From: a virus
Taxonomy: Duplodnaviria > Heunggongvirae > Uroviricota > Caudoviricetes
DNA length: 55,149 bases
Strand: one strand, 5' to 3'
Virus record (IMG/VR): IMGVR_UViG_2531839531_000008
The notes beneath the pieces were generated by a model. It was not told the DNA's origin. It searched no databases and saw nothing but the letters and a program-made list of their open reading frames with translations. This document shows, piece after piece, positions 19,255 to 35,158 of the stretch (the first letter of the stretch is position 1; each line of letters begins with the position of its first letter). A program made the position numbers and the translations under genes.

Positions 19255-19650
19255 ATGATGGAAAAAACAGAAAACAAACCGATTGTAATTGGTGCTGATG
19301 CTGCTCCGTTTAAGTTTGAGTTGTCTCAACTGGTGGAGATGCGTATCAGTGATGAATGGGGTGAGGTTAAAGCCCGTGCGCAGTATGCGGATGGCGAAAA
19401 CCAGTACTTGATCCACTACAAAGCAGCTGATGGTCGCGCCACGACGGAGTGGTTTGGTGAGTCAATGCTGGAAGCAACAGAAGATGATCGTCATCCGGGT
19501 TGTCCGGTATTTGCCGGTATGAAATTACCGGAAGGTGCAGTTGAACTGCAGCCGGGTGAGGTGTTCGTAATGACAGACATCATTGATGGTAAACCGCAGT
19601 ATTCGCGTATTGAAATGAATAGTAAGAGTGCTCGCCTGATTCGTGAGTAA
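19255..19650 (+). CDS. hypothetical protein between lysis cassette and cos
   Basis: 131 aa, AGGAG RBS. Confidence 0.4.
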   Translation: MMEKTENKPIVIGADAAPFKFELSQLVEMRISDEWGEVKARAQYADGENQYLIHYKAADGRATTEWFGESMLEATEDDRHPGCPVFAGMKLPEGAVELQPGEVFVMTDIIDGKPQYSRIEMNSKSARLIRE

Positions 19651-20036
19651 CAGGCATTACAGCAGCCCTTCACTCTAAGGGGTTGCTGTAATGTGAGAAA
19701 TAAAAAACCGGTCACAGGGAGCAGCTACACAGAAGCGGCCGGCGAAGACCGCCAATACCACCCATGCATTGATGCAACATACTAATGACAATAGCCGCTA
19801 TTGATGTAAATGCAATGTTATGCATCGACGAAAATAAAAAACCGGCAGGGGAAATCCATTGAAGATTTGCCGGTGGCAAAAGAGGGCCATGTTTTTAACC
19901 TTAGTCGCAGAGTTACGGAGTGCAACTACGAATGCTGCCGGTATATGGCTGAATGGCGTTTCAATGATGTACGTCATCTTATCTGTAAATGTTAATGACA
20001 AACGCTCTCATTTGTGCGGGTCCTTCCGGTGGGGTG

Positions 20037-20116
20037 GCCTGCCACGGGGCGGGAGCGTCGCGGAAAAAGGCTAGTTTTTGAAATTTTATTCGTCATCACC
20101 ACCACTGTAATAGATT
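20037..20116. other. cos region of prophage (cosN about 20066-20077 plus flanking cosB-like sequence)
   Basis: CCACG-GGGCGGGAGCGT-CGCGG resembles lambda cosN ACG-GGGCGGCGACCT-CGCGG as recalled; lies just upstream of terS. Confidence 0.6.
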
Positions 20117-20232
20117 GATATTACAGTGGTTTTATTTTTATGGTGTCGATTTTGATTGTTTTTTGTTCATCACTAACACCGTTTGCCTAAAGTTGTTCGC
20201 GAGATGCATGTTTAAAACATTCTGGAGCGGGT

Positions 20233-20727
20233 ATGGATCGAGAGTTAAAAAATCTGACGCTGAATATCAGTCAACTGGCGGCACTGTCAGGTGTACATCG
20301 CCAGACTGCTGCGGCAAGGCTGCAAAATCTACCCGTTGCAGGGGGGCATGAAAGCAACCTCAAGCTTTATCGGGTGGTTGATATTGTGTCGGCATTTCTG
20401 GCATTGCCACCGCCGGTTGCAGAAGGCGAAATGGACGCGCATGAGCGCAAAGCCTGGTATCAGTCTGAACGTGAGCGTCTTAAGTTCGAACAGGAAACGG
20501 CACAACTCATTCCGGCCAGTGATGTCAGACGGGAGTTTGCCATCTGGGCAAAAGCGGTCGTGCAGGTGCTGGAGACATTACCGGATATTCTGGAACGTGA
20601 CTGCGGTCTGCAGCCTGCCGCTGTGAGCCGTGTTCAGTCCATTATTGATGATCTGCGCGATCAGATAGCCCTGCGGGTGACTGAAGCAGGTGCGGATGAT
20701 GAGGAGGAATTACAGCAGGAGGAGTAA
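20233..20727 (+). CDS. terminase small subunit (Nu1/Noh-like)
   Basis: 164 aa, N-terminal wHTH-like, TAATG coupling to terL, immediately downstream of cos. Confidence 0.75.
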   Translation: MDRELKNLTLNISQLAALSGVHRQTAAARLQNLPVAGGHESNLKLYRVVDIVSAFLALPPPVAEGEMDAHERKAWYQSERERLKFEQETAQLIPASDVRREFAIWAKAVVQVLETLPDILERDCGLQPAAVSRVQSIIDDLRDQIALRVTEAGADDEEELQQEE

Positions 20728-21722
20728 TGCTGAATCAGGAAACCGCAAAGGCAGCACGAACCGATTCAGGTTATATCCTTCGCGCACCGAGACGAATGCG
20801 GGTTGCTGATGCCGTTGCTCAGTATATGCGGGTGCCCATGGGGGCAGGGAACTCAGTCCCGTGGGATCCGCTGGTGGCACCGTATGTTATTGAGCCGATG
20901 AACTGCCTGGCCTCGCGTGAATACGACGCAGTGATATTTGTTGGCCCGGCACGAACCGGCAAGACTATCGGCCTGATTGACGGCTGGGTGATTTACAACG
21001 TGATTTGCGATCCTGCTGATATGCTGATCATTCAGATGACGGAGGAAAAAGCCCGCGAACACTCCAAAAAACGACTCGCCAGAACGTTTCGCGTCAGCCC
21101 GGAAGTGGTCAGTCGCCTGAGTCCGAACAAAAATGACAACAACGTTTATGACAGAACATTCCTTGCTGGTAACTACCTGAAAATCGGCTGGCCGTCAGTC
21201 AATATCATGTCCTCATCAGATTATAAATGCGTCGCGCTGACGGATTATGACCGTTTTCCGGAAGATATTGATGGCGAGGGGGATGCTTTCTCTCTTGCCT
21301 CAAAACGTACCACCACATTTATGTCCAGCGGTATGACGCTGGTGGAGAGTTCCCCCGGCAGGGATGTGAAGGATGTGAAATGGCGACGGACTTCACCGCA
21401 TGAGGCTCCACCAACCACGGGGATCCTGTCGCTCTATAACCGTGGTGATCGCCGTCGCTGGTACTGGCCCTGTCCACACTGTGGTGAGTATTTTCAGCCC
21501 TGCGGCGATGTGGTTGCTGGTTTCCGTGATATTGCCGATCCCGTGCTGGCAAGTGAGGCGGCTTATATTCAGTGTCCTTCCTGTTCAGGACGGATTATGC
21601 CTGAACAAAAACGTGAGCTGAACGGACGTGGGGTCTGGTTGCGGGATGGTGAATCCATCAATGCGGATGGCAGTCGTTATGGTGATCCCCGACGCTCACG
21701 TATTGCGTCATTCTGGATGTAG
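20727..21722 (+). pseudogene. terminase large subunit (lambda gpA-like), N-terminal part, interrupted by satellite insertion
   Basis: 331 aa matching gpA N-terminal ATPase region incl. PCPHCGE motif; ends at TAG created at insertion junction. Confidence 0.8.
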
Positions 21723-21725
21723 GGT
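21713..21725. repeat. left direct repeat / att core of inserted satellite (CTGGATGTAGGGT)
   Basis: same 13-mer with one mismatch at 32312-32324. Confidence 0.6.
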
Positions 21726-21883
21726 ACATTTCTTACCTGTTTTTATGTTCTGGTGTCGTTTTATAGTCTTTTCAATGAGTTGTGATTTTTTGAGTTTCCT
21801 CTCTTTACTTGATAATGAGTTAGTTTATCGCTTGTTATCGACTTGAATGGACTACATGACGGACTAAAAAATGAGGGCGACAG

Positions 21884-23122
21884 ATGTCGGTAAAGCCATT
21901 AACCGTGACTGAAGTTAAGGGGATGAAACCACGTGAAAGGGACTATGCCGTTTATGATGGGTTCGGTTTATTGCTGAATGTGAGTAAAGCAGGTGGGAAA
22001 GTGTGGCGTTTCCGTTATAGCCATCCGATAACGAAGAAACGGCAGACATACACGATAGGGCGTTTTCCTGAATTCTCACTCGCGGAAGCACGGGAAGTAC
22101 GTGATGAACTTCGGCGAATGATTGCGCGTGGAGTTGATCCAGTGACAGAGAAGAAAAATCGTAAAATTGAGATGGCGCTAAAAAATCTACAGACATTTGA
22201 AGTCGTTGCTAATGCATGGTTCGCTTTTAAAAAAGGATCGGAGTTGAGGAAACCTACGTTGTATAATATCGAATATGAAGTATATAAGTATCTTGTTCCT
22301 TTCTTTGGTAAATACAGCATAGATAAAATTACAGCACCATTAGCAATTAAGACACTGGATGCCGTATCTGATAAAAACGCGCTGCAAAAAAAATTAATAT
22401 CAAGATTAAATGAAATCATGAATTACGCTGTAAATTGTGGCGCATTGAAAATAAATCCATTGCTTAAAATAAAGACAGCATTCACTGGAAAGAAAAATAA
22501 ATTATTAGCCGCGTTACCTATAGAAAGATTACCTGAATTTCTGAGCTGGTGGGATAGTGTGCCTCATAAGTATCAAATAGCTCACAATGCGCTTTTATTC
22601 CAGATATTGACAATGGTCAGGCCAGGTGAGGCGATTAAAGCAGAGTGGCCCGAGATTGATTTTGATTCTGGCTTGTGGATTATCCCCGCGCATAAAATGA
22701 AATGCCATCGTGAACATGTTGTGCCTCTCTCATCACAGGCTATTAGAATCCTAAGAACAATGCAGGAAATAAAAAGAGGGCGTTATATATTTTTTTCCTC
22801 CAGAACAAAAGATGCTCCTATGGGAAAGAATACTATCAATACCCCAATTGCTGCCAGCAAGTTCAAAGGGATTGTAACGTTACACGGTTTTCGTTCGATG
22901 TGGAGTACGCTTTTAAATGAGGAGGGTTTTAACCCTGATGTTATTGAGGCTGCATTAGCACATAAAAGTGGTGATAAAATAAGAGATATTTATAATAGAA
23001 CTACTTATTTAGAACAACGCAAAATTATGATGCAATGGGTAGGAGATTTTTTTGATGAGGCGAGAAAAGGGGTAATTAATAGATCCGGTGGTAAGAAAGG
23101 TTTGAGAATAGTAAATGGTTGA
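21884..23122 (+). CDS. int: P4-type tyrosine integrase (DUF4102 arm domain)
   Basis: 412 aa; N-terminus LT..E..G.KP...DY.V.DG.GL.L.V...G.K.WRFRY typical of P4 Int family; adjacent to left junction. Confidence 0.9.
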   Translation: MSVKPLTVTEVKGMKPRERDYAVYDGFGLLLNVSKAGGKVWRFRYSHPITKKRQTYTIGRFPEFSLAEAREVRDELRRMIARGVDPVTEKKNRKIEMALKNLQTFEVVANAWFAFKKGSELRKPTLYNIEYEVYKYLVPFFGKYSIDKITAPLAIKTLDAVSDKNALQKKLISRLNEIMNYAVNCGALKINPLLKIKTAFTGKKNKLLAALPIERLPEFLSWWDSVPHKYQIAHNALLFQILTMVRPGEAIKAEWPEIDFDSGLWIIPAHKMKCHREHVVPLSSQAIRILRTMQEIKRGRYIFFSSRTKDAPMGKNTINTPIAASKFKGIVTLHGFRSMWSTLLNEEGFNPDVIEAALAHKSGDKIRDIYNRTTYLEQRKIMMQWVGDFFDEARKGVINRSGGKKGLRIVNG

Positions 23123-23134
23123 GGAGTTCAGCAA

Positions 23135-23338
23135 ATGAATACCAATGAAGATATTTTATTTACTAAAGACGTAATGAAAATTTTGCGCTATGGGGCAATG
23201 AGCGCATTCATCAATTTCTGGAAAGATGAAAATAATGGTTTTCCTCAACCGTTCAGAATTGGGCGGCGGCATACCTGGCACCGCAGAGATGTAGAGGCAT
23301 GGTTAGATAAACAACGAGAACAGGCCAATCCCCACTAA
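23135..23338 (+). CDS. alpA: AlpA-family transcriptional regulator
   Basis: 67 aa small HTH protein directly after P4-type int. Confidence 0.65.
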   Translation: MNTNEDILFTKDVMKILRYGAMSAFINFWKDENNGFPQPFRIGRRHTWHRRDVEAWLDKQREQANPH

Positions 23339-23351
23339 TAATATCTTTCAT

Positions 23352-23378
23352 ACCCCGCACGCAATGCGGGGTTTTTTG
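23352..23378 (+). terminator. intrinsic terminator after alpA
   Basis: ccccgca-cgcaa-tgcgggg hairpin followed by TTTTTT. Confidence 0.6.
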
Positions 23379-23396
23379 TATGTGAGGTAAAAAACG

Positions 23397-23978
23397 ATGA
23401 ATAAAAATATTGCCGTGACGGGCAAGGGGTACGCTCGTTCAGTAAAAAAATTCTGCGATATTCGTGATCTTGTCGTTCTGCGCTTTGATGGCGTGGATGT
23501 TCGTGTGGTGTATCTGAACGGCGATCCGTGGTTTGTTGCAAAGGATGTTTGTGAAGCTCTGGAAATAAGCAACTCACGCGATGCTCTAAAAGCTCTGGAT
23601 GTGGATGAGAAGAATACCGTCGCTTTAAGCTACGGTATTCGCGGAAATCCAAATCATAGCGTCGTTTCTGAATCTGGTTTTTACAAGCTGATCGCCAGAA
23701 GTCGCAAAGCTGTTACTCCTGGCACGTTCGCCCATCGTTTCAGTAACTGGGTATTCAGGAATGTGATACCAGGTATCAGAAAAACGGGGGCTTATGGTAT
23801 CCCGTGGGGTGCATTACAGGATTTTTCCCGCCGTAAAGAGCAATATCAAATAAGTGCCAGCGAGAAGGGGAGGGAGCTACAGGCATGTAAGCGCAAAAAG
23901 CGTGAGCTGGAGGAAGAAGAAAAAAGGCTGATACGTGAATACCAGCCTGAGTTTTACTTTGGTGAGCGTATTCAGTAA
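23397..23978 (+). CDS. BRO-N domain protein (antirepressor-like)
   Basis: 193 aa; N-terminal BRO-N-like segment, lysine/glutamate-rich C-terminus. Confidence 0.6.
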   Translation: MNKNIAVTGKGYARSVKKFCDIRDLVVLRFDGVDVRVVYLNGDPWFVAKDVCEALEISNSRDALKALDVDEKNTVALSYGIRGNPNHSVVSESGFYKLIARSRKAVTPGTFAHRFSNWVFRNVIPGIRKTGAYGIPWGALQDFSRRKEQYQISASEKGRELQACKRKKRELEEEEKRLIREYQPEFYFGERIQ

Positions 23979-24370
23979 CCACACGCGGTGTTGATTATAC
24001 GGTACATCGTGTTGACCGGGAAGCTACCCACCAGCAAGGCAAAATCTTCTGCTAAAAAATGACATATGACCAGTCGTCCGGAAAGCATGAAATTTTACAA
24101 AAATGGAAAATGAAGATTTTTATTGTGCTGGTGGGTAAAAACAAAAAGCGCCCCGTTGCCGGAGCGCCCTTGCGAACAATTAACCTACTGCGCAAAAAAT
24201 GAATCAGTGCAGTGGGATTATATCAACCGTGTAGCGAAGCGCCACAATTGCCGGATAACAGGCAAAACAAAGGCCACCCGCTACGGTGGCCCCTCGACAC
24301 AAGCTACACGTTATCCCCAACGCATGAGCATTACCAACAATGCCACATTTGCGGCTGGTGGGCAATGTGA

Positions 24371-24559
24371 TCAGTCAGATTTGGTTCGTTCCAAGGTTTG
24401 CAACGAGAGTTTTTTCCTGCGCTCTTTAAGGAATTTCTCAAGAGCAAACGAACAAGGTGCGAATCTTTCTGATTCATGCTCTATCTTTCTGCGCCGTCTT
24501 TTCCGTGCCGGTGATAATGTTTTGGTCAATTCTTTATCGGTCATTGTGTTGTCCTGCAT
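24371..24559 (-). CDS. hypothetical small basic protein
   Basis: 62-aa ORF; terminator-like hairpin plus T-run on minus strand near 24270-24300. Confidence 0.35.
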   Translation of the reverse strand: MQDNTMTDKELTKTLSPARKRRRRKIEHESERFAPCSFALEKFLKERRKKLSLQTLERTKSD

Positions 24560-24601
24560 AGCAATGCGCCGTAATACCTTACACCACGGCGCTGGTGATG
24601 G

Positions 24602-24907
24602 TTATTCCTGCTCTTTGGCCTTGCGACGCTGGAGTTCTTCACGCGCGACGGTGATGAGTTGCCCGATCTCCTCGGCTGCTTTGACTCCGATTTTTTCCAC
24701 CTGCGCCAGTGCATCGAGCGAAGAAACCAGGGGATTTTCTCCGCTTCCTTCTGCCTGGCGGCGGGCGATCTCACCGCGAACGGCTGTAATCACGAAAGCG
24801 GCTATTGTTTCCCCTTCCGTTTTCGAATTTTCCATTTCCTCGATTACATCATGGGGGAAGCGGATATTTTTCATTTGCGATCTGCTGTTGATATTTCCTG
24901 TTGCCAT
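24602..24907 (-). CDS. hypothetical protein, candidate satellite regulator
   Basis: 101 aa; divergent from rightward operon; intergenic region 24908-25103 holds GTGTGTA/TGTACA repeat motifs. Confidence 0.45.
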   Translation of the reverse strand: MATGNINSRSQMKNIRFPHDVIEEMENSKTEGETIAAFVITAVRGEIARRQAEGSGENPLVSSLDALAQVEKIGVKAAEEIGQLITVAREELQRRKAKEQE

Positions 24908-25103
24908 CAGAATGTCCGGTTATTTTGAGGTGTGCATACATTACATCAAAAGGTGTGTAAATAAAACACTTGACACTGTAGCGCACTTAAATTTAATCTG
25001 TACACACACCAATGATTGTGGTGTATGTACAGCAAAGCCCCGCAGTGCTGGAACACATGCAGGGCTTCTAACCACCAACGATAGCGAAAGTATCGAGGTA
25101 GCT

Positions 25104-25310
25104 ATGAGAAATTATACCAGACACCCGCAAGGGCGGGACTCGTACAACCTGAATAAATACATCTGGCGTTTTATCGCCCTGAGCACGGCACAACCGCGCG
25201 TGATTACCATTGAGGCCACCAGCGAACAGGAAGCGCGTCAGCAATCTCCTGATGGCTGCGTGATGGTATTCGCTGCCCGTATTCGCCAGGGGGAAACCTA
25301 TGCACAATAA
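25104..25310 (+). CDS. hypothetical small protein
   Basis: 68 aa with GAGG RBS; first gene of rightward operon. Confidence 0.4.
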   Translation: MRNYTRHPQGRDSYNLNKYIWRFIALSTAQPRVITIEATSEQEARQQSPDGCVMVFAARIRQGETYAQ

Positions 25311-25536
25311 AACCACACCGGACGCAGCCGCCGAAGCCATCAAAACGCTGATGCACGCGCTGATTGATATTTCTGTTATCGCAGACAAGGCGCATAAGCA
25401 CGCCACCAGCGAAACAGAATATGCCGGGGCTTTCGTTCCTCACTCACTGGCTCTTATGCAATTTAGTGCTGATATGGCGCTGAATGAGGCAGGCAAAATT
25501 CTTACCGCAGATATTCAGGGGGTGCACCATGCATGA
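25300..25536 (+). CDS. hypothetical small protein
   Basis: 78-aa ORF overlapping neighbours by a few nt. Confidence 0.35.
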   Translation: MHNKTTPDAAAEAIKTLMHALIDISVIADKAHKHATSETEYAGAFVPHSLALMQFSADMALNEAGKILTADIQGVHHA

Positions 25537-25756
25537 TGACTGTTATCTTAAATCAATGAGCCATGCAGAAAACGCACTGACTAACAGTGAATGTTTGAGG
25601 CAAATATTTCTTATCTGGCTTGATGGTTTAAGTGATGCGCCGGAAGATGAGCGTGAATCTAATCTTGCTGGTGCGTTTATTTCATTACTCGATACGGTAA
25701 TCGTCGAATTAAATAAAGCGATCGAAATTCACGATAAAAAAATAAACGCGGAATAA
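25529..25756 (+). CDS. hypothetical small protein
   Basis: 75 aa from internal ATG. Confidence 0.35.
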   Translation: MHDDCYLKSMSHAENALTNSECLRQIFLIWLDGLSDAPEDERESNLAGAFISLLDTVIVELNKAIEIHDKKINAE

Positions 25757-25761
25757 AAACC

Positions 25762-26049
25762 ATGAAAAATAAAAATTCTGGCTTTACTGCCAGCGGCCCC
25801 GCTCGGCCTGAAATCCGCCCCGGCGATATTTTCCGGGATAACTATGGCGGCACGGTAACGATAAAAGGCGTGGCAGAACGGCGCATCACTTACCGCCGTG
25901 ATGGCTACGAATATGACTGCGTGATGCCTGTTTATCAGTTCCGGCGTGATTTCACGCTGGTGGGCCATCGTAAAGCCGTAAATCAGAAACGTGCAGCAAG
26001 TCATATCCGCAAAATTCGTGAAATGCTGGTCGCAGGGGGTAAAAAATGA
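25762..26049 (+). CDS. hypothetical small protein
   Basis: 95-aa ORF, ATGA-coupled to primase gene. Confidence 0.4.
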   Translation: MKNKNSGFTASGPARPEIRPGDIFRDNYGGTVTIKGVAERRITYRRDGYEYDCVMPVYQFRRDFTLVGHRKAVNQKRAASHIRKIREMLVAGGKK

Positions 26050-27860
26050 AACTGGCACCGAACGTAAAACAGCAGTCACGCGGCATAAAACACAAAGAAA
26101 CAGAAGTCATTATTTTTGCGGGTAGTGATGCCTGGTCACACGCAAAACAATGGCAGGAACATGACGCGCGTATGGCCGGAGATAATGAGCCTCCTGTGTG
26201 GCTTGGGGAGCAGCAGTTATCTGAACTGGATAAGCTGCAAATTGTGCCGGAAGGCAGAAAATCCGTGCGCATATTCAGGGCCGGATATCTTGCGCCAGTA
26301 ATGATAAAGGCGATTGGTCAGAAGCTGGCGGCGGCAGGCGTACAGGATGCAAATTTTTATCCTGAGGGTATGCACGGCCAGGAGGTGCAGAACTGGCGCG
26401 AATATCTGGCCCGTGAGCGCCAGAATCTTTCTGATGGTCTGGTGATTCAGCTTCCTGTTAAGAAAAAAACAGAAGACAGCGCCGCACCACTGGCGCTTAA
26501 CCAGATGGGAGCAAGCCAGCGCGGCGAAGTTCTCCTGGCACATTATGGCGGTGAACTGGCGATTCATGCCGACTCTGACACTGTTCACCATTACAACGGC
26601 GTTGTATGGGAGCCGATTCAGGATAAAGAGTTACAGCGTGCTATGGCGCAGATTTTCATTGATGCGGAGATCAGCTATTCGCAGAACGCCATTAAATCGG
26701 CGGTCGATACCATGAAGTTAAGTTTGCCTGTAATGGGGAATACAGCCCGTAACCTGATTGGATTCAGTAACGGGGTATTTGATACCAGAACAGGTAATTT
26801 TCGGGAGCATAACAAAAACGACTGGTTGTTAATTGCCAGTGAATTACCTTTCAGCCCACCAGCAGAGGGGGAAACGCTGGCAACACATGCGCCGAATTTC
26901 TGGAAGTGGTTACGCCGCTCGGTGGCAGAGAATGACCGCAAGACGGATCGCGTGCTGGCTGCATTATTCATGGTGCTGGCGAACCGGTACGACTGGCAGT
27001 TATTCATTGAGGTAACAGGTCCAGGGGGAAGTGGTAAAAGCGTGATGGCGGAGATTTGCACTATGCTGGCGGGTAAGGCCAACACAGTATCGGCAAGCAT
27101 GAAGGCGCTGGAAGATGCAAGGGAACGCGCGTTAGTGGTTGGCTTTTCGCTGATTATCATGCCGGATATGACCCGCTACGCTGGTGATGGCGCAGGAATT
27201 AAGGCCATTACAGGCGGTGACAAGGTGGCAATCGACCCGAAGCATAAAGCCCCCTACTCAACACGCATTCAGGCGGTCGTGCTGGCGGTGAACAATAACG
27301 CCATGTCATTCAGTGACCGCAGCGGGGGGATCTCACGTCGTCGGGTGATATTCAATTTTTCGGAGGTTGTACCGGAGAACGAGCGCGACCCCATGCTGGC
27401 AGAAAAAATAGAAGGAGAGCTGGCGGTTGTGATTCGCCATCTGCTTACTCGTTTTTCTGACCAGGACGAAGCTAAACGCCTGCTGTATGAGCAGCGGAAA
27501 TCAGAAGAAGCTCTGGTGATAAAACGCGAGGGCGATTCGCTGGTGGACTTCTGTGGCTATCTCATGTCGTCGGTAATGTGTGATGGTCTGTTAGTGGGTA
27601 ATGCCGAAATTATTCCGTTCAGTCCGCGCAGGTATCTTTATCACGCCTATCTGGCATATATGAGGGCACACGGATTCGGTAAACCTGTAACACTGACGCG
27701 CTTCGGTAAAGATATGCCGGGGGCAATGGCGGAATATGGCAGGGAGTATATAAAACGGAAAACGAAGCACGGTTTGCGTTCAAATGTGACACTGACAGAG
27801 GATTCAGAAGACTGGATGCCATCATGTGCATCGGTCACAAATGACGACAGCAAAAATTAA
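26046..27860 (+). CDS. satellite replication protein: primase/SF3-helicase family (P4 alpha C-terminal-like)
   Basis: 604 aa; Walker A GPGGSGKS; followed by iteron array. Confidence 0.8.
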   Translation: MKLAPNVKQQSRGIKHKETEVIIFAGSDAWSHAKQWQEHDARMAGDNEPPVWLGEQQLSELDKLQIVPEGRKSVRIFRAGYLAPVMIKAIGQKLAAAGVQDANFYPEGMHGQEVQNWREYLARERQNLSDGLVIQLPVKKKTEDSAAPLALNQMGASQRGEVLLAHYGGELAIHADSDTVHHYNGVVWEPIQDKELQRAMAQIFIDAEISYSQNAIKSAVDTMKLSLPVMGNTARNLIGFSNGVFDTRTGNFREHNKNDWLLIASELPFSPPAEGETLATHAPNFWKWLRRSVAENDRKTDRVLAALFMVLANRYDWQLFIEVTGPGGSGKSVMAEICTMLAGKANTVSASMKALEDARERALVVGFSLIIMPDMTRYAGDGAGIKAITGGDKVAIDPKHKAPYSTRIQAVVLAVNNNAMSFSDRSGGISRRRVIFNFSEVVPENERDPMLAEKIEGELAVVIRHLLTRFSDQDEAKRLLYEQRKSEEALVIKREGDSLVDFCGYLMSSVMCDGLLVGNAEIIPFSPRRYLYHAYLAYMRAHGFGKPVTLTRFGKDMPGAMAEYGREYIKRKTKHGLRSNVTLTEDSEDWMPSCASVTNDDSKN

Positions 27861-27872
27861 ACTTATGGAATA

Positions 27873-28103
27873 ACTGTTCACCACTGTTCACCCTGTTATA
27901 AATATCTTTTATATCAGTACATTATAGGGTGAACAGTTATTTGTGAACTGTTCACCAAACTATTCACTGTTCACCTTTTTGATTATTTATTGAGCTTTAA
28001 GGGTGAACAGTGGTGAACAGTTGGTGAATAGTTTTTGTGAAACTATTCACCCCTTAACATTATGAATAAAAAGGGAAAATCTCAAAAGGTGAACAGGTGA
28101 AGG
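27873..28103. repeat. iteron array, probable satellite replication origin
   Basis: about 12 copies of CTGTTCACC / GGTGAACAG in both orientations in AT-rich DNA right after primase gene. Confidence 0.65.
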
Positions 28104-28147
28104 GTTAAAATGCAAAAATTTTATTTTATTGCTGTGAGGTAAAGCCT

Positions 28148-28393
28148 GTGACAACGAAGCACGCAAAAAAACCACAATCTCACGCCCTTGATTTGACAGA
28201 ACACTGGCTGAGGGTGGCGATAAAAATCATCGACCGCAACGCGGGAGAAGGGTACGCAAAAGCACATCCCGAACTGGTAAGCGCACTCATGACCACGGCA
28301 GCGGCAAACTTTGCCACGCTGACAGAACGGGAGATTGCCGAAGCGGAACAGGTGACAACCATCAACGTTAAAACCGGAGAGCAGACAGCATGA
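28148..28393 (+). CDS. hypothetical protein
   Basis: 81 aa, GTG start with GAGG RBS. Confidence 0.4.
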   Translation: MTTKHAKKPQSHALDLTEHWLRVAIKIIDRNAGEGYAKAHPELVSALMTTAAANFATLTEREIAEAEQVTTINVKTGEQTA

Positions 28394-28812
28394 CAGCACA
28401 GATAGCAGCTTACGGGCGGCTGGTGGCTGACCCGCAGTTAAAGACCACCAGCAAAGGGACACAAATGGCGATGGCGAGTATGGCGGTTCCCCTGCCGTGC
28501 AGCCAGGCCGATGACGGAACGGCGACGATGTGGTTATCCGTCCTGGCGTTTGGCAGACAGGCCGATGCACTGGCAAAGCACCACAAAGGCGAACTGGTGA
28601 GCGTGGCGGGTAACATGCAGGTAAGCCAGTGGACAGGCCAGAACGGCGAAACGCGGCAGGGCTGGCAGGTTATCGCAGACAGCGTAATCAGTGCGCGAAC
28701 GGCGCGACCGGGCGGCAAAAAAGGCCAGCAGGGCCAGGCTACTGACGCGCTGAACAGAGCAAAACAACTGGCGGGGAATGATGATCCGTACGGGGATAAC
28801 ATACCGTTTTAA
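28390..28812 (+). CDS. SSB-like single-stranded DNA-binding protein
   Basis: 140 aa; Gly/Gln-rich linker and acidic tail ending DNIPF, cf. E. coli SSB tail DDDIPF. Confidence 0.55.
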   Translation: MTAQIAAYGRLVADPQLKTTSKGTQMAMASMAVPLPCSQADDGTATMWLSVLAFGRQADALAKHHKGELVSVAGNMQVSQWTGQNGETRQGWQVIADSVISARTARPGGKKGQQGQATDALNRAKQLAGNDDPYGDNIPF

Positions 28813-28827
28813 GCAACGAGTAACAGA

Positions 28828-28850
28828 AGCCGGAGCAATCCGGCTTTTTT
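28828..28850 (+). terminator. intrinsic terminator after SSB-like gene
   Basis: agccgg-agcaat-ccggct hairpin followed by TTTTTT. Confidence 0.6.
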
Positions 28851-28852
28851 AT

Positions 28853-28924
28853 GGGTCCTTCCTGTGGAGCGGCCTTGCCACGGGGCGGGAGCGGCGCGGA
28901 AAACGGCTGATTTTTGCATTTTCA
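28853..28924. other. satellite cos copy 1 (cosN about 28883-28894)
   Basis: about 85 percent identical by eye to prophage cos element; cosN GGGCGGGAGCGG. Confidence 0.55.
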
Positions 28925-29410
28925 AGGCGGCGGCAGCATGTGCGGTAATTTATTGATAATTAAAAGTTATTTCTCTTTTCACCTGTACAATATTTTTTTC
29001 TCCCTGTCATTAGACCAGTTTTCAATTAATTGAAATATATAAATAAATCTGATTTTCACCTGCCGGATGGAGTTGCCTACACCAATTCAGGCCAGATTTT
29101 TGCGTCAGAATCTGATTAATCTGTTTTTGTGATAGAAATTTGTTTATCTACCACTTATATAGATCAATAATGTGCATAGTTTAGGCAGACATAGGGGGCT
29201 TACTGTGAGTTGTATTAATAACCTGAACACAGGCGACATCAGAGGCGGATCCGTTCATCTGGATGCGCAAACTGTTATGCGCCTTAAGCAATACAGAATT
29301 GACCATGTGAAGAATCACCCTGAACAACCGTTACCAGGTGTGGCGCAGATTGTCAGACATGCCGTAAACGCCTGGCTTAATCAGAATGGTTTGGCATCGG
29401 GGAATAAGCA

Positions 29411-31327
29411 ATGAATCGCTGGTACACCATTAAAGCGGCGGATGTTCGCGGGACGGCGGAGATATCCATCTATGAGGAAATTGGTGGCTTTGGTATTACC
29501 GCGAAGCAGTTCACGGAAGATCTGAAAGTCCTTGGCGATGTTTCACATATCAATCTGAGGATCCATTCACCAGGTGGCGACGTGTTTGAAGGTATCGCCA
29601 TCTATAACCTGCTACGGAATCATCCGGCAGACATTACGGTTTATATAGATGGCGTGGCGGCTTCAATGGCTTCGGTCGTTGCAATGGCTGGCGATCGCGT
29701 TGTTATGCCGGAGAACGCCATGATGATGATCCATAAGCCGTGGGGTATCTCTGGCGGAAATGCTGGCGATATGCGTGATTATGCTGATTTGCTGGATAAG
29801 GTGGAAACCGTGTTAATCCCTGCTTATGCCAGAAAAACGGGCAAATCAGCACAGGAAATTGCCACCATGCTGGAAGATGAAACCTGGATGGACGGGAAAG
29901 AATGCCTTAAGCACGGTTTTGCTGATGAATTGTTGCCATCTGTCAGAGCAATGGCGCGAATTGAATCGAAACGTACAGGAGATTTTTTACATATGCCGGA
30001 AACCATTAAGGGAATGATTACCCCGCCGAAATCACAGGCAAAAAACACCATTACAGGCGACCAGGAGCGCATTAACGGCATTAAAGAAATTTTTAGCGTG
30101 TTCGGCAACCAGTACGACGGGATCAAAATGTCGTGCCTTGAAGATGCGTCCTGTACGCTGGAAATGGCCCGTGAACGCCTGCTTAAAGAAATGGGTAAGA
30201 ACCACACACCAACCAATAAAAATATTCCGTCTCATATCTATGCCGGAAACGGGAACATAACAGGCGATGCGATTCGCCAAGGGCTTTATTCCCGTCTTGG
30301 GTATGAGCGTCCTGAGCGGGGAAATCCTTACGCGATGATGAGCCTTTTTGAAATGGCCCAGGCATCACTAACTGATCGTGGTATCAGTGTTGGCGGTTTT
30401 TTAAATCGCTCGCAGGTCGTTAATGCAGCTTTCACACACAGCAGCAGCGATTTTTCTCATATTCTGGCTGGCGGTGCTGAAAAATCAGTGCTGAAAGGCT
30501 GGCAGGACAGCGGCGAAACGTTCCAGAAATGGACGCGTACCGGTTCGCTTTCAAACTTTCATGAAGCAAAACGCGTTGGCCTGAATGGCTTTTCAAAACT
30601 AGATAAAGTACCGGAAGGTGCGGAATATAAATACATCACCACCAGCGATAAAGGTGTACCTATTGCGCTGGCCACGTACGGGAATATTTTTTCCGTTACC
30701 CGTCAGGCCATTATCAACGATGACCTGACCCAGTTAACTACAATCCCCATGGCGATGGGACGCGCAGCCGCCAGAACAGTTGGCAATCTGGTTTATCTCC
30801 TGTTAACCAGCAATGGCAAGTTTACGGATGGTAAAGCGTTATTCCATGCCGATCATAAAAATCTTATTGCGAAGGATATGGACATGGTGGGGCTTGATGA
30901 AGCCCGTAAGCTGATGCGCCTCCAGGAAGACGCTAACGGCGATTCCCTGAATATTACCCCTGCTTTTGTTCTGGTCCCTGCCGCGCTGGAGTCTGCCGCA
31001 CATCGCGCCATTCTGTCATCGTCATCACTCTTTCCGGTTGGTAATGAGAGCACTCTCAATCAGAACCCGGGCATCATTAACGTGGTGAAAGATATGGCAG
31101 AAGTAATTGTTGAGCCACGTCTTGATAAGGCCAATAGCAAGGAATGGTATGTAGCCGCAGCTAAGGGGATGGACACGATAGAGGTCGCTTATCTTGACGG
31201 TATTGATACGCCATATCTTGAGGAGCAGGAGGGCTTTACTGTTGATGGTGTCGCATGGAAGGTGCGCATTGATGCAGGTGTCGCGGCCCTCGACTATCGC
31301 GGATTACTGAAATCGAGTGGAGCATGA
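29411..31327 (+). CDS. satellite prohead protease (ClpP/S49-like) fused to major capsid protein
   Basis: 638 aa; N-terminal protease region HSPGGDVFEG...AASMASV; C-terminal HK97-fold capsid-like region; paralog of prophage gene 35159-37117. Confidence 0.75.
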   Translation: MNRWYTIKAADVRGTAEISIYEEIGGFGITAKQFTEDLKVLGDVSHINLRIHSPGGDVFEGIAIYNLLRNHPADITVYIDGVAASMASVVAMAGDRVVMPENAMMMIHKPWGISGGNAGDMRDYADLLDKVETVLIPAYARKTGKSAQEIATMLEDETWMDGKECLKHGFADELLPSVRAMARIESKRTGDFLHMPETIKGMITPPKSQAKNTITGDQERINGIKEIFSVFGNQYDGIKMSCLEDASCTLEMARERLLKEMGKNHTPTNKNIPSHIYAGNGNITGDAIRQGLYSRLGYERPERGNPYAMMSLFEMAQASLTDRGISVGGFLNRSQVVNAAFTHSSSDFSHILAGGAEKSVLKGWQDSGETFQKWTRTGSLSNFHEAKRVGLNGFSKLDKVPEGAEYKYITTSDKGVPIALATYGNIFSVTRQAIINDDLTQLTTIPMAMGRAAARTVGNLVYLLLTSNGKFTDGKALFHADHKNLIAKDMDMVGLDEARKLMRLQEDANGDSLNITPAFVLVPAALESAAHRAILSSSSLFPVGNESTLNQNPGIINVVKDMAEVIVEPRLDKANSKEWYVAAAKGMDTIEVAYLDGIDTPYLEEQEGFTVDGVAWKVRIDAGVAALDYRGLLKSSGA

Positions 31328-31333
31328 CAACAA

Positions 31334-31356
31334 GGGCGGCGAAAGCCGCCTTTTTT
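31334..31356 (+). terminator. intrinsic terminator after satellite capsid gene
   Basis: gggcggc-gaaa-gccgcc hairpin followed by TTTTTT. Confidence 0.6.
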
Positions 31357-31358
31357 AC

Positions 31359-31433
31359 GGGTCCTCCCGGTGGGGTGGCCTGCCACGGGGCGGGAGCGGC
31401 GCGGAAAAAGGCTAGTTTTTGCATTTTCATTCA
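31359..31433. other. satellite cos copy 2 (cosN about 31388-31399)
   Basis: near-identical to prophage cos element; homology continues into terS homolog. Confidence 0.6.
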
Positions 31434-31583
31434 TCATCATCATCTTTTCAATGCATTGAATTTAAACGAATTTTATTTTTAGTATGTTAATTTTGCGTGT
31501 TTTTTGGTCAACATATAACGCACTTTATAACGCTTTTTGAAAAGGTGTTCGCAAGATGCATGTTTAAAACGTCAGGAGGGGAT

Positions 31584-32069
31584 ATGGATCGTGAGTTGAA
31601 AAATCTGATGCTGAACATTAACCAACTGGCGGCAATAGCAGGTATATGTCGTCAGACTGCGGCGGCAAGGCTGAAAAACATCCAGCCAGCCGGAGGACAT
31701 GACAAGCTGAAACTCTATCGGGTGACTGACATTCTGACCTGTTTTCTTGATCTTCCCGTTCCGGCATCACTGGAAGAAATGGAGCCACATGACCGCAAGG
31801 CTTGGTATCAGTCTGAACGTGAGCGCCTCAAGTTCGAACAGGAAACGGCGCAACTCATACCCGCCGATGATGTGCGAAAAGAGATGGCTATATGGGGGGA
31901 AATCGTAAGCGAGGAACTGGCAAAACTCCCCAATATTCTGGCACGTGATGCAGGGCTTAAACCGATGGCAGTAAACAGAGTGCAGTCAATTATTGACGAT
32001 TTGTGTAATCAGATTATCAGCCGGATGGTAAAAAATGACGCAGTGAATGAGGATGTAAAACAGGCATGA
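31584..32069 (+). CDS. satellite terminase small subunit homolog
   Basis: 161 aa, roughly 60 percent identical by eye to prophage TerS; AGGAGG RBS; preceded by cos copy. Confidence 0.7.
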   Translation: MDRELKNLMLNINQLAAIAGICRQTAAARLKNIQPAGGHDKLKLYRVTDILTCFLDLPVPASLEEMEPHDRKAWYQSERERLKFEQETAQLIPADDVRKEMAIWGEIVSEELAKLPNILARDAGLKPMAVNRVQSIIDDLCNQIISRMVKNDAVNEDVKQA

Positions 32070-32311
32070 TAATGACCGACGCCGTGATCCGCCGTGCCAC
32101 CGGAATCAGACTACCAGAAGGTAAACAGAAGGCCACGCAGTCGGGCAGCGTCATCGTGTTAATGCATGGCGGCGTATTCAGCTTTTAATTAATATTGCTG
32201 CCTTTTTCTTTTTTTTATCGCTTAGGCAGGTACTAAATCTTGGACTATGTGAATGGGGTTACAACTAAATAGTACCTTATAATCATTTGGTTACCTTTTA
32301 TTTACTTCTTC

Positions 32312-32324
32312 CTGGATGGAGGGT
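32312..32324. repeat. right direct repeat / att core of inserted satellite (CTGGATGGAGGGT)
   Basis: matches 21713-21725 with one mismatch; lies at resumption of terL reading frame. Confidence 0.6.
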
Positions 32325-33428
32325 CCGGCAGCTGCTTACCAGACACTCTCGCAACTCGTTTACAAACTGCTTACTGCAGAACAGGAATACGAGACAACCG
32401 GAAGTGAAGAAACACTCAGGGCGGTTATCAATACCGACTGGGGATTACCTTATCTTCCCCGCGCCAGCATGGAGCAACGAAAAAGTGAACTGCTTGAGCA
32501 GCGGGCAGAGCCAGTTCTTTCCCGCAGTGTGCCGGATGGCGTTAATTTCCTTGTGGCGACAGTGGATGTGCAGGCGGGACGTCATCGCCGTTTTGTGGTT
32601 CAGGTAACGGGCTATGGCAGCCGTGGCGAACGCTGGATTATTGATCGTTACAACATCACGCAGTCATTGCGCGGTGACAGCGACGGGGAGAGCCAGCGAA
32701 TTGATCCGGCCAGCTATCCGGAAGACTGGGATGTCCTGCTGACGGATGTTTTTCATAAAAGCTGGCCGCTGGCCTCCGATCCTTCTCAACAAATGCGACT
32801 GATGGCAATGGCGGTGGACTCCGGCGGTGAAGACGGGGTCACTGATAATGCCTATAAATTCTGGCGTCGTTGCCGTCGTGATGGCCTTGGTAAACGTATT
32901 TACCTGTTTAAGGGCGACAGCATCCGGCGCGCAAAACTGATCACCCGTACATTCCCTGATAACACCGGACGAACGGGCCGACGGGCGCAGGCCGCAGGTG
33001 ATGTGCCGCTCTGGCTTCTTCAGACGGATGCACTGAAAGACCGGGTGAATAACGCGTTATGGCGTGACTCGCCAGGTCCAGGCTATGTGCATTTCCCTGA
33101 CTGGCTGGGGAGCTGGTTTTACGACGAACTGACGTATGAAGAGCGGAGCAGTGACGGGAAATGGAGTAAGCCGGGTCGCGGTGCCAACGAAGCTTTTGAC
33201 CTGATGGTGTATGCCGAGGCTCTGGTCATTCTGCATGGATACGAAAAGATCCGCTGGCCGGATGCACCGGAGTGGGCGAGCCGGGAAACCTGGCTGGAGT
33301 GTGTCCAGGACAGTACTGAACCGTCATCCTCACCGGAACCGGTATCCACGCCTGTTAAAAAACAAAAACGGAAGAAAACAGTAACTGACGATGTTAACCC
33401 CTGGCTGACTTCCGGAGGATGGTTATGA
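32316..33428 (+). pseudogene. terminase large subunit (gpA-like), C-terminal part downstream of satellite insertion
   Basis: 370 aa matching gpA C-terminal nuclease region; joins in frame with 20727-21719. Confidence 0.8.
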
Positions 33429-35145: not shown

Positions 35146-35158
35146 TTCCTGGTTCAGG

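What the first reader, a model, noticed from the sequence alone, without database searches (positions are those of the whole stretch)
21713..32324. A 10.6 kb P4/PICI-like satellite is integrated inside the prophage terminase large subunit gene
ORF 20727-21722 reads as the N-terminal about 330 aa of a lambda gpA-type TerL and stops at a TAG at 21720-21722. ORF 32316-33428 reads as the C-terminal part of the same family. Joined, ...RIASFWM + EGPAAAYQ... gives one uninterrupted TerL of plausible length. Between them sit a P4-type integrase directly inside the left junction, alpA, a BRO-N gene, a primase-helicase with iteron origin, and packaging genes. The junctions carry a 13-bp direct repeat with one mismatch (CTGGATGTAGGGT at 21713-21725, CTGGATGGAGGGT at 32312-32324), as expected for attL/attR. 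This would make helper packaging depend on precise excision of the satellite. I am not aware of a described satellite that targets a terminase gene.
Basis: partly seen in the sequence, partly recalled or inferred. Interest (0 to 1): 0.92.

Follow-up and report, generated by a model that had tools for sequence, protein, structure and literature searches.

The report
Phage satellite embedded in helper terminase gene
A 10.6 kb phage satellite sits precisely inside the large terminase gene of an E. coli lambdoid prophage; this "helper-embedded" arrangement was described in 2023, but this element uses an unreported site and a different integrase lineage that also targets phage late genes.

Summary
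Window 20727-21722 and 32316-33428 are the two halves of one gpA-type terL. Joined at the 7-bp core they differ by 3 of 2103 nt, with no indel, from an intact terL in E. coli 120899. The 10,599-bp insert is a Gram-negative PICI-type satellite. It carries int, an alpA-like gene, Bro-N, a D5 primase with about 11 iterons, SSB, a ClpP-protease/capsid fusion, a TerS homologue and two lambda-type cos sites.

The novelty claim fails. Tommasini, Mageeney and Williams (2023, PMC10111431) described "helper-embedded PICIs" at 14 prophage late-gene sites, including two in TerL cognates.

Two things are not in that paper. The first is the site, the ATPase/nuclease junction of gpA-type TerL. The second is the integrase, which is only 25% identical (83 bits) to their founder integrase against their 400-bit cut-off.

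Each of 11 relatives sampled at 44-75% identity, from Salmonella, Rahnella, Klebsiella, Lelliottia, Raoultella, Providencia, Pantoea and E. coli, also lies just downstream of a phage late gene. On a neighbour-joining tree they group together, next to tmRNA/tRNA-targeting integrases.

Excision, restoration of terL and packaging are inferred, not shown. Verdict: a real feature of a known kind, with a new site and a probable second late-gene-targeting integrase clade. Interest is moderate.

The parts
545..1663 (-). Helper prophage integrase. It marks the left end of the roughly 44 kb lambdoid helper at the potC/potB locus.
   Evidence: ORF list. Corresponds to the annotated integrase of the related prophage in strain 602354, L005.
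20018..20063 (+). Helper cos site (cosQ GGGTCCT plus cosN). The predicted left cohesive end starts at 20047 (GGGCGGGAGCGT).
   Evidence: Aligns with lambda cosQ/cosN. The deposited phage cdtI genome begins at the homologous base.
20233..20727 (+). Helper small terminase subunit (DUF1441 family).
   Evidence: Pfam DUF1441, E 2.7e-41. The island's 66%-identical homologue matches phrog_141 'terminase small subunit'.
20727..21722 (+). terL 5' fragment (ATPase domain, 331 aa), ending ...RIASFWM followed by TAG.
   Evidence: Pfam GpA_ATPase, E 1.5e-72. Collinear with intact TerL.
21713..21725 (+). attL core CTGGATG|TAGGGT. The 7-bp identity block is followed by an attP-derived T that creates the stop codon.
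   Evidence: The same core is found in E. coli, Salmonella and Rahnella relatives.
21849..21866 (+). Doubled GGACTA-N6-GGACTA motif in the P' arm, +133 to +150 from the core centre. Candidate arm-type or AlpA binding site.
   Evidence: A GGACTA-containing motif lies just upstream of int in 11 of 12 sampled clade members, doubled in about half of them. Its position parallels the published HE-PICI doubled motif at +132.
21884..23122 (+). Satellite tyrosine integrase (412 aa), P4/CP4-57-like with an arm-binding domain.
   Evidence: Pfam Arm-DNA-bind_3, Phage_int_M and Phage_integrase. NCBIfam PRK09692, below its cut-off. 25% identity and 83 bits to the 11capE integrase.
23135..23338 (+). AlpA-like HTH gene (67 aa), putative excisionase/activator.
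   Evidence: HTH_17 at E 0.004, below the Pfam cut-off. phrog_66 'excisionase and transcriptional regulator', E 9e-7. Its position directly after int matches the PICI layout.
23352..23372 (+). First terminator-like hairpin on the + strand after the junction. None lies between the terL-N stop codon and int-alpA.
23397..23978 (+). Bro-N / anti-repressor-like protein (Bro zone).
   Evidence: Pfam Bro-N, E 1.8e-18. phrog_2593 'anti-repressor', E 4e-83.
24602..24907 (-). YlcI/YnfO family gene, divergently oriented. It replaces the spurious 395-aa + strand ORF.
   Evidence: NCBIfam YlcI_YnfO_N, E 8e-18; phrog_6522, E 1e-48. The same gene is annotated in the relatives L001, L002 and L004.
25762..26049 (+). 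DUF4222 protein, upstream of the primase gene as in other PICIs.
   Evidence: Pfam DUF4222, E 1e-25.
26046..27860 (+). D5-type primase/helicase (604 aa), 84% identical to the primase of the published HE-PICI 11capE.
   Evidence: Pfam D5_N, DUF5906 and Pox_D5. BLASTP comparison.
27869..28097 (.). Iteron origin: about 11 copies of GGTGAACAGT / ACTGTTCACC in both orientations.
28390..28812 (+). Single-strand DNA-binding protein.
   Evidence: Pfam SSB, E 4e-16.
28853..29076 (+). Satellite cos site 1 (cosQ + cosN + left-end region). The predicted end is at 28883. 91% identical to the left end of phage cdtI and 60% to the resident helper's left end.
29411..31327 (+). ClpP-like prohead protease / major capsid protein fusion (638 aa), 56% identical to the helper's homologue at 34898-37117.
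   Evidence: Pfam CLP_protease and Phage_capsid_4. BLASTP comparison.
31359..31480 (+). Satellite cos site 2 (cosQ + cosN + cosB-like region), directly upstream of the satellite terS. The predicted end is at 31388.
31584..32069 (+). Satellite TerS homologue (DUF1441), 66% identical to the helper TerS. The likely true start is the Met at 31584.
   Evidence: Pfam DUF1441. phrog_141 'terminase small subunit', E 6e-58. BLASTP comparison. The 486-nt annotation in L001 supports the shorter start.
32242..32261 (+). GGACTA...GGGTTA motif in the P arm, -73 to -54 from the core centre.
   Evidence: Read from the sequence. Co-oriented with the P' arm motif.
32312..32324 (+). attR core CTGGATG|GAGGGT.
32316..33428 (+). 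terL 3' fragment (nuclease domain, 370 aa).
   Evidence: Pfam GpA_nuclease, E 5.5e-82, profile positions 6-294. Collinear with intact TerL.

Best explanation
Window 21720-32318 is a helper-embedded PICI-type phage satellite. Its own P4/CP4-57-like tyrosine integrase inserted it by recombination at a 7-bp core ((C/T)TGGATG). The target lies at the boundary between the ATPase and nuclease domains of the gpA-type terL of a complete lambdoid prophage at potC/potB.

Shown here:
- The insertion is precise.
- Intact target alleles exist in other genomes.
- The same integrase sits at the same site in several divergent terL alleles, in several prophage loci and in three genera.
- The satellite has no terL, portal, tail or lysis genes, so it cannot make virions alone.

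Inferred, by analogy with the experimentally studied HE-PICI 11capE:
- After SOS induction the composite excises and replicates.
- Q-antiterminated late transcription from the helper runs through terS and the terL 5' fragment into int and alpA. No terminator intervenes.
- Int plus the AlpA-like factor then excise the satellite and restore terL. Helper packaging is therefore delayed and depends on satellite excision.
- The satellite replicates from its primase/iteron origin. It is packaged by helper TerL, directed to the satellite's cos sites by the satellite's own TerS homologue, possibly into capsids built or re-sized by its protease-capsid fusion.
For: - Split gene and healing.
- Related prophage with an empty site.
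- Independent occurrences of the junction: the attL junction spans at least 80% of the query in 34 complete E. coli genomes, and all 60 listed hits show a terL fragment next to int.
- Frequency: the int/left end is present in 90 of 5426 complete E. coli genomes, including O157:H7, O121, O111, O145 and O45 strains.
- Different prophage loci: L001, L002 and L004.
- Viral contigs: 35 of 35 IMG/VR loci with an integrase at least 75% identical carry the terL junction, across five different terL flank peptides.
- Mobility: the island's left end is 94-99% identical between genomes whose whole 601-nt attL query (half terL flank, half island) is only about 83% identical.
- Other genera at the same core: Salmonella and Rahnella.
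- PICI organisation and replication module.
- Packaging module and cos sites.
- No + strand terminator before int-alpA.
- Published precedent and induction data for HE-PICIs: PMC10111431.
Against: - No experiment bears on this element. Excision, terL restoration, helper dependence and packaging are all inferred.
- Tommasini et al. could not recover virions even for their own model element.
- The AlpA assignment is weak (HTH_17 below the Pfam cut-off).
- Two co-oriented cos sites only 2.5 kb apart are hard to reconcile with simple cos-to-cos packaging of a 10.6 kb unit.
- No record in the phage collection contains the island.
Confidence: 0.85

Rival explanations
1. The insertion is a fossil. 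A once-mobile island inactivated the prophage and both are now decaying cargo, so there is no functional coupling between excision and packaging.
For: Tommasini et al. note that many HE-PICI helpers look truncated, and they failed to obtain virions. Some relatives carry broken integrases or IS insertions, for example IMT16316, M159-1 and MB06233.
Against: In this window the integrase is full length, with the R...HxxR...H...Y residues visible in the alignment. The two terL halves carry no frameshift and differ by only 3 nt from an intact allele. The helper has the full gene complement of the related intact prophage. The element occurs in many distinct terL alleles, which requires recent mobility.
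Confidence: 0.08
2. The element mainly acts as a lock that keeps the prophage from producing virions, a regulated-gene-integrity switch that benefits the host or the island. On this view it is not a satellite that is itself packaged.
For: The insertion abolishes full-length TerL. The attP-derived T places a TAG directly after the crossover in nearly all copies. Regulated gene integrity is the framing used in PMC10111431.
Against: The island carries two lambda-type cos sites, a TerS homologue and a capsid/protease gene. These only make sense if its DNA is packaged. The two views are not exclusive.
Confidence: 0.05
3. The split terL is an assembly artefact or chimera, or the interruption is an intron, intein or homing-endonuclease type of insertion.
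For: Terminase genes commonly host inteins and homing elements (general knowledge). The raw reads of this window cannot be inspected.
Against: The same junctions recur in dozens of independently finished genomes and in 35 IMG/VR contigs. The insert is 10.6 kb, encodes an integrase, is bounded by a recombination core, and ends the reading frame with a stop codon rather than an in-frame fusion.
Confidence: 0.01

Closest known systems
Helper-embedded PICIs (HE-PICIs), founder Eco567.11capE in E. coli NRG857c (Tommasini, Mageeney and Williams 2023, PMC10111431)
   Same: - A 10-16 kb PICI with the four zones integration / Bro / replication / late.
[quoted passage not shown]
- No replacement sequence in attP, so the late gene is disrupted until excision.
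- Carries a homologue of a helper head gene and a cos region.
- The primase is 84% identical to that of 11capE.
   Different: - The integrase is only 25% identical (83 bits) to the 11capE integrase, far below that study's 400-bit criterion.
- The published doubled TGTATTGC attP motif is absent. A doubled GGACTA motif takes its place.
- The target is a gpA-family TerL, which is not among the 14 published sites.
- It carries its own TerS homologue, which 11capE lacks, and two cos sites.
HE-PICIs at A:Terminase_1:132 and A:Terminase_1:246 (same paper)
   Same: These are satellites embedded in the helper's large terminase gene. The idea of a satellite inside terL is therefore already published.
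   Different: They target a different TerL family (Pfam Terminase_1, not GpA_ATPase/GpA_nuclease), use different cores (aatatcacga, ttaccaa) and belong to the other integrase clade.
Chromosomal Gram-negative PICIs such as EcCICFT073
   Same: They share the int-alpA-(Bro)-pri-ori layout and cos-based exploitation of lambdoid helpers, and many carry a capsid gene.
   Different: They integrate in chromosomal genes such as phoQ and interact with the helper only in trans. According to PMC10111431, EcCICFT073 lacks terS.
P4/CP4-57-type integrases that target tmRNA and tRNA genes
   Same: These are the nearest outgroup of the window's integrase (33-42% identity), with the same domain architecture.
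   Different: They insert at the 3' ends of tmRNA or tRNA genes and preserve the target. The window's clade inserts inside phage late genes and disrupts them.
Regulated gene integrity / active lysogeny (elements that split a gene and restore it on excision)
   Same: The target gene is broken by integration and is predicted to be restored by precise excision.
   Different: Here the interrupted gene belongs to another mobile element, the helper phage, and the benefit goes to the satellite.

Membership tests
HE-PICI (Tommasini et al. 2023) | [quoted passage not shown] | tested here: met
   The island lies inside terL of a complete lambdoid prophage, and its main genes are on the same strand as terL.
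HE-PICI (Tommasini et al. 2023) | Four-zone GN-PICI organisation: int/alpA, Bro, replication (primase, ori, SSB), late | tested here: met
   The AlpA assignment is weak.
HE-PICI (Tommasini et al. 2023) | attP carries no replacement sequence, so the target late gene is disrupted | tested here: met
   The terL 5' fragment ends at a TAG created at the junction, and the nuclease domain is separated from it by 10.6 kb.
HE-PICI (Tommasini et al. 2023) | Integrase belongs to the 11capE clade (the survey criterion was at least 400 bits to the 11capE integrase) | tested here: not met
   83 bits and 25% identity. All 15 other integrases compared (38-95% identical to the window's) score 50-90 bits. On the neighbour-joining tree the 11capE integrase is a long outgroup branch.
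HE-PICI (Tommasini et al. 2023) | Doubled tgTGTATTGCantgTGTATTGCa motif at -81 and +132 of the attP centre | tested here: not met
   No match with up to 3 mismatches in the whole window. An analogous doubled GGACTA motif lies at +133, with GGACTA...GGGTTA at -73.
HE-PICI (Tommasini et al. 2023) | Uses one of the 14 published late-gene sites | tested here: not met
   The text 'GpA' does not occur in the supplementary lists. The TerL sites listed there are A_Terminase_1_132 and A_Terminase_1_246. The stored spreadsheet was truncated, but its HE-PICI rows come first.
HE-PICI (Tommasini et al. 2023) | On induction: composite excision, then replication, then satellite excision that restores the late gene | not testable with these tools
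   This needs an induction experiment with att-site qPCR or sequencing.
Gram-negative PICI | 10-20 kb, int at one end followed by alpA, a pri gene with a downstream ori, and few or no virion genes | tested here: met
   The island is 10.6 kb. Genes are as, and the iterons lie downstream of the primase gene. The criteria are as summarised in PMC10111431.
Gram-negative PICI | Induced, replicated and packaged only in the presence of a helper phage | not testable with these tools
   Inferred from the absence of terL, portal, tail and lysis genes in the island.
P4-like satellite | Psu, Delta and Sid capsid-size/transactivation genes, and a P2-type helper | tested here: not met
   No island ORF matched such families in Pfam, PHROGs or NCBIfam. 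The helper is lambdoid. Only the integrase type and the primase are P4-like.
Capsid-forming PICI (cf-PICI) | Own terL, portal and head-tail connector genes in addition to capsid and terS | tested here: not met
   Only a protease-capsid fusion and a TerS homologue are present. No terL or portal ORF lies in 21720-32318.
Intein / homing endonuclease / group I intron in terL | In-frame or self-splicing insertion that leaves a translatable terL | tested here: not met
   There is a stop codon at the junction. The 10.6 kb multigene insert carries an integrase and is bounded by att cores.

The most novel reading that the evidence does not exclude
The window's element represents a second integrase clade with a general tropism for prophage late genes. 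This clade is phylogenetically separate from the published HE-PICI clade and sister to tmRNA/tRNA-Ser-targeting P4/CP4-57-like integrases.

Its members occur across Enterobacterales. They target at least a dozen sites: gpA-type terL at about aa 195 and aa 331-334, Terminase_1-type terL, a portal gene, prohead protease genes, a major capsid gene, Mu-F-like head morphogenesis, head closure, tail genes and a baseplate wedge gene.

If so, helper embedding evolved at least twice, or an integrase module was swapped onto the same PICI backbone.

A second possible point is the dual cos design. One cos is cdtI-type and the other is linked to the satellite's own terS. This may let one satellite be packaged by helpers with two terminase specificities.
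Probability: 0.6. Interest if true: 0.6.

Novelty: new variant of a known kind. Interest (0 to 1): 0.45.

Why it matters
First, annotation. Prophages with a split terL are routinely called defective. This includes many prophages in O157:H7, O121, O111, O145 and O45 strains. They may instead be intact helpers that carry an excisable satellite.

Second, the published account holds that a single integrase clade is responsible for helper embedding. The evidence here points to a second, unrelated clade with the same habit. That would make late-gene embedding a recurrent strategy rather than a one-off, and would give a natural comparison for asking what creates the tropism.

Third, the element gives a clean genetic design for testing cis-coupling between satellite excision and helper packaging. 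The gene it interrupts is the packaging motor itself, and the satellite brings its own TerS and cos sites.

Tried and rejected
- **Published attP motif.** TGTATTGCANTGTGTATTGC gave no match in the window.
- **Immunity RNAs.** An Rfam scan of 19000-34000 for P4-like RNAs (C4/isrK) returned only two chance miRNA-model hits over the iterons.
- **The 395-aa ORF at 24123-25310.** Rejected as a gene: it has no family hit and an odd composition, and the opposite strand carries a YlcI/YnfO gene.
- **Species-representative genomes.** The scan with the integrase found no close relative. It returned only 30-42% identical integrases; 32 of the 37 lie next to a tmRNA or tRNA gene and none is near terL. This was useful as an outgroup but not for family size.
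- **Phage-record collection.** No record holds the island or the composite. The hits were only short matches to the primase, terS and cos regions.
- **Fuzzy-regex cos search.** It timed out and was replaced by exact and degenerate patterns.
- **TTTATCGCTT repeat.** I first took this repeat, at -101 and +108 of attP, for the arm site. The GGACTA motif is better supported because it is conserved across the clade.
- **Other literature.** Searches for other reports of satellites in terminase genes, or of a second HE-PICI clade, found only the Tommasini paper and papers that cite it.

Full report
**The observation**

The ORF at 20727-21722 encodes 331 aa that match Pfam GpA_ATPase (E 1.5e-72). It ends ...RIASFWM followed by TAG at 21720-21722. 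The ORF at 32316-33428 encodes 370 aa that match GpA_nuclease from profile position 6 onward (E 5.5e-82). The junctions carry CTGGATGTAGGGT (21713-21725) and CTGGATGGAGGGT (32312-32324).

Joining 20727-21719 to 32319-33428 gives a 2103-nt, 700-aa reading frame. It differs from an annotated intact terL of identical length in E. coli 120899 at only 3 nt and 1 aa, with no indel. A 322-nt query across the healed junction is contiguous over at least 80% of its length in 1335 of 5426 complete E. coli genomes.

A related helper-type prophage with a 699-aa terL sits between potC and potB in strain 602354. Its left arm is 81% covered at 96.9% identity and its right arm 94% covered at 97.5%. That TerL is 88% identical to the joined protein, without gaps. 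The split is therefore a precise insertion, and empty sites exist.

**Surroundings**

The window is essentially one composite. The helper integrase (545-1663, minus strand), xis and exo lie at the left. Next come early and lysis regions with three tRNA genes, a cos site, terS (DUF1441, 20233-20727) and the split terL. Portal, protease-capsid fusion and tail genes run to the right end. The helper is about 44 kb and the composite about 54.6 kb.

**The insert (21720-32318, 10,599 bp)**

Its G+C content is lower than that of the flanks. In order it contains:

- a 412-aa tyrosine integrase with Arm-DNA-bind_3, Phage_int_M and Phage_integrase domains (21884-23122)
- a 67-aa HTH gene with weak AlpA/excisionase similarity (23135-23338)
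- a Bro-N anti-repressor-like gene
- a divergent YlcI/YnfO gene (24602-24907, minus strand)
- several small PHROG-only ORFs and a DUF4222 gene
- a D5-type primase/helicase (26046-27860)
- about 11 GGTGAACAGT iterons (27869-28097)
- an SSB gene
- a ClpP-protease/major-capsid fusion (29411-31327), 56% identical to the helper's
- a DUF1441 TerS homologue (31584-32069), 66% identical to the helper's

These assignments rest. The 395-aa ORF at 24123-25310 listed mechanically is not a gene. The island has no terL, portal, tail or lysis gene, so it cannot form particles alone. This is the Gram-negative PICI layout. No island ORF matched a Psu, Sid or Delta family, so it is not P4-like, and it lacks the terL and portal genes of capsid-forming PICIs.

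**Is it mobile, and is the site specific?**

The integrase with the island's left end occurs in 90 of 5426 complete E. coli genomes. All 60 listed attL hits show a terL fragment next to int. The attL junction spans at least 80% of the query in 34 genomes.

Carriers include O157:H7, O121:H19, O111, O145:H28 and O45:H2 strains. The helpers sit at different chromosomal loci: potC/potB here, the ybcK/emrE region in O157:H7 strain 3-5-1, and others.

In IMG/VR, 35 of 35 loci with an integrase at least 75% identical have the terL 5' fragment directly upstream. These fragments fall into five different TerL flank peptides. The core [CT]TGGATGTAGGGT is found in 33 loci, and two have G in place of the T.

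The island's left end is 94-99% identical between genomes whose whole 601-nt attL query, half terL flank and half island, is only about 83% identical. This indicates repeated integration rather than vertical descent. The same core and the same ...SFWM stop occur in Salmonella (integrase 75% identical) and Rahnella (68%).

Across examples the identity block is the 7 bp (C/T)TGGATG. The next base is T in attL, derived from attP and creating TAG. It is G in attR and in attB.

**What is already known**

Tommasini, Mageeney and Williams (NAR Genomics and Bioinformatics 2023, PMC10111431; preprint July 2022) described helper-embedded PICIs. They mapped 491 elements to 14 sites in cognates of lambda late genes, including two in TerL cognates, A:Terminase_1:132 and A:Terminase_1:246. 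For the founder 11capE they showed experimentally that the composite excises, replicates, and then the satellite excises. They also proposed cis-regulation by helper late transcription reading into the satellite.

The window's element shares this architecture. Its primase is 84% identical to that of 11capE.

**What is not in that paper**

Their survey was seeded with the 11capE integrase at a cut-off of 400 bits. The window's integrase is 25% identical (83 bits) to it. Their diagnostic doubled TGTATTGC attP motif is absent. No GpA site appears in their lists, and their reference PICIs sit at chromosomal sites such as phoQ.

I therefore asked where relatives of the window's integrase sit. A protein search gave a graded series from 95% down to about 40% identity across Enterobacterales. 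All 11 relatives examined at 44-75% identity lie 96-170 nt downstream of, and co-oriented with, a phage late gene or gene fragment:

| Host | Identity to the window's integrase | Late gene directly upstream |
|---|---|---|
| Salmonella | 75% | gpA-type terL, same core as here |
| Rahnella | 68% | gpA-type terL, same core as here |
| Salmonella | 62% | S78 protease |
| Lelliottia | 60% | gpA-type terL at about aa 195 |
| E. coli | 58% | tail-region gene downstream of FII |
| Klebsiella quasipneumoniae | 55% | gpA-type terL at aa 334 (Nu1-type terS) |
| Raoultella | 51% | truncated major capsid gene |
| E. coli | 49% | Terminase_1-type terL at about aa 95 |
| E. coli | 49% | Pa193_gp24-type head maturation protease |
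| Pantoea | 45% | portal gene |
| Providencia | 44% | tail gene downstream of the tape-measure gene |

IMG/VR loci at 48-55% identity add head-closure, Mu-F-like head-morphogenesis and baseplate-wedge targets.

All 15 other integrases compared, at 38-95% identity to the window's, score only 50-90 bits against the 11capE integrase. Below about 42% identity the relatives sit next to tmRNA or tRNA genes. In a neighbour-joining tree the 12 late-gene integrases form one group. That group is sister to the tmRNA/tRNA-Ser group, and the 11capE integrase is a long outgroup branch. The tree has no support values and the sampling is modest, so I treat a second late-gene-targeting clade as probable rather than proven.

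A GGACTA-containing motif lies just upstream of int in 11 of the 12 sampled members, and it is doubled in about half of them. In the window the doubled GGACTA-N6-GGACTA lies at 21849-21866, which is +133 from the core centre. GGACTA...GGGTTA lies at -73 in the other arm. This mirrors the geometry of the published doubled motif at +132 with a different sequence.

**Packaging signals**

A roughly 75-nt G+C-rich element occurs three times in the window and nowhere else. It aligns with lambda cosQ (GGGTCCT) and cosN (ACG|GGGCGG......|CGCGG). The deposited genome of phage cdtI starts exactly at the homologous base.

The helper cos is at 20018-20063. The island has two cos sites, at 28853-28899 and 31359-31404, and this pair is conserved in the related islands L001 and L002.

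The 200 nt to the right of island cos1 are 91% identical to the cdtI left end but only 60% identical to the resident helper's. Island cos2 continues into the satellite's own terS and is 71% identical to the helper's left end. The cdtI terL also contains the attB sequence.

I infer that the satellite carries two cos/cosB specificities. How two cos sites 2.5 kb apart are handled during packaging is unexplained.

**Mechanism, and what is inferred**

Shown:
- precise insertion at a recombination core
- intact alleles elsewhere
- a recurrent, site-specific association of this integrase with terL
- a PICI gene set with replication and packaging modules but no virion machinery

Inferred:
- helper late transcription reads into int-alpA, since no + strand terminator lies before 23352
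- Int and the AlpA-like factor excise the satellite late and restore terL
- the satellite's TerS directs helper TerL to the satellite's cos sites
- the capsid fusion alters or supplies heads

At 54.6 kb, about 124% of the helper's length, the composite is unlikely to be packaged whole. This assumes lambda-like size limits, as the authors of PMC10111431 also argue.

**Rivals**

A dead insertion in a decaying prophage is possible in some genomes, where integrases are broken or carry IS elements. It is unlikely here, given the intact integrase, the undamaged terL halves and a complete helper.

A pure lock function is not exclusive with satellite behaviour, and it is disfavoured as the sole role by the cos, terS and capsid genes.

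Misassembly, intron or intein explanations are excluded by the recurrence of the junctions and by the nature of the insert.

**Verdict**

This is a real and well-defined feature of a known kind, the helper-embedded PICI. The site, at the domain boundary of gpA-type terL, is not in the published list. The integrase belongs to a different lineage that appears to share the late-gene tropism. Interest is moderate (0.45) and novelty is a new variant of a known kind.

Noticed in passing
window 28853-29076 and 31359-31480 (helper cos at 20018-20063): The satellite carries two co-oriented lambda-type cosQ+cosN sites 2.5 kb apart. The flank of cos1 is 91% identical to the left end of phage cdtI. cos2 is tied to the satellite's own terS and resembles the resident helper more closely (71%). 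This may provide two packaging specificities. How cos-to-cos packaging copes with two sites is unexplained. The pair is conserved in L001 and L002.
   Followed up: partly
window 21849-21866 and 32242-32261; loci L046-L058 just upstream of int: A GGACTA-containing motif lies just upstream of int in 11 of 12 sampled clade members and is doubled (GGACTA-N6-GGACTA) in about half. In the window it sits at +133 from the attP centre, with GGACTA...GGGTTA at -73. This is the same geometry as the published HE-PICI doubled motif at +132, but a different sequence.
   Followed up: partly
IMG/VR loci L086 and L095 (attL); L082: Two attL copies have G instead of T after CTGGATG. The terL fragment then reads on for about 20 codons (...SFWMEGTFLTC...) instead of stopping at TAG. 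L082 shows a 1-nt difference in the core. The position next to the 7-bp block therefore varies, which bears on where strand exchange occurs.
   Followed up: no
window 24123-25310 (+) versus 24602-24907 and 24371-24559 (-): The longest ORF in the Bro zone (395 aa, TTG start) is spurious. GC and AT skew flip in this stretch, and the real genes are a minus-strand YlcI/YnfO gene and a small phrog_21027 ORF.
   Followed up: yes
L060 (LR881103.1, 'Escherichia phage vB_KppS-Ant', 16.5 kb, induced prophage): This record is deposited as a phage. It has an integrase, a primase (78% nt identity to the island's), terS, terL, a capsid gene, a portal gene and connector genes, but few tail genes. It looks like a capsid-forming PICI-type satellite rather than a phage.
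   Followed up: no
L004 (E. coli O157:H7 strain 3-5-1) and other STEC genomes: Related islands split the terL of lambdoid prophages in many O157:H7, O121, O111, O145 and O45 genomes. RefSeq annotates both terL halves as pseudogenes, so these prophages would be scored as defective.
   Followed up: partly
window 16883-17132: The helper prophage carries three tRNA genes (Met-CAT by ARAGORN, annotated as tRNA-Ile in the relatives; Arg-TCG; Arg-TCT) downstream of its DNA methyltransferase. This is the usual position in lambdoid prophages of pathogenic E. coli.
   Followed up: no
L048/L049, L051, L055, L058 (relatives of the island in other late-gene sites): Relatives with a different integrase-site pairing carry different replication proteins (an AAA_25 RepA-type helicase or a DUF927 primase instead of D5) and different captured head genes (Phage_cap_E, Peptidase_S78). 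This points to module shuffling between integration, replication and late zones.
   Followed up: no
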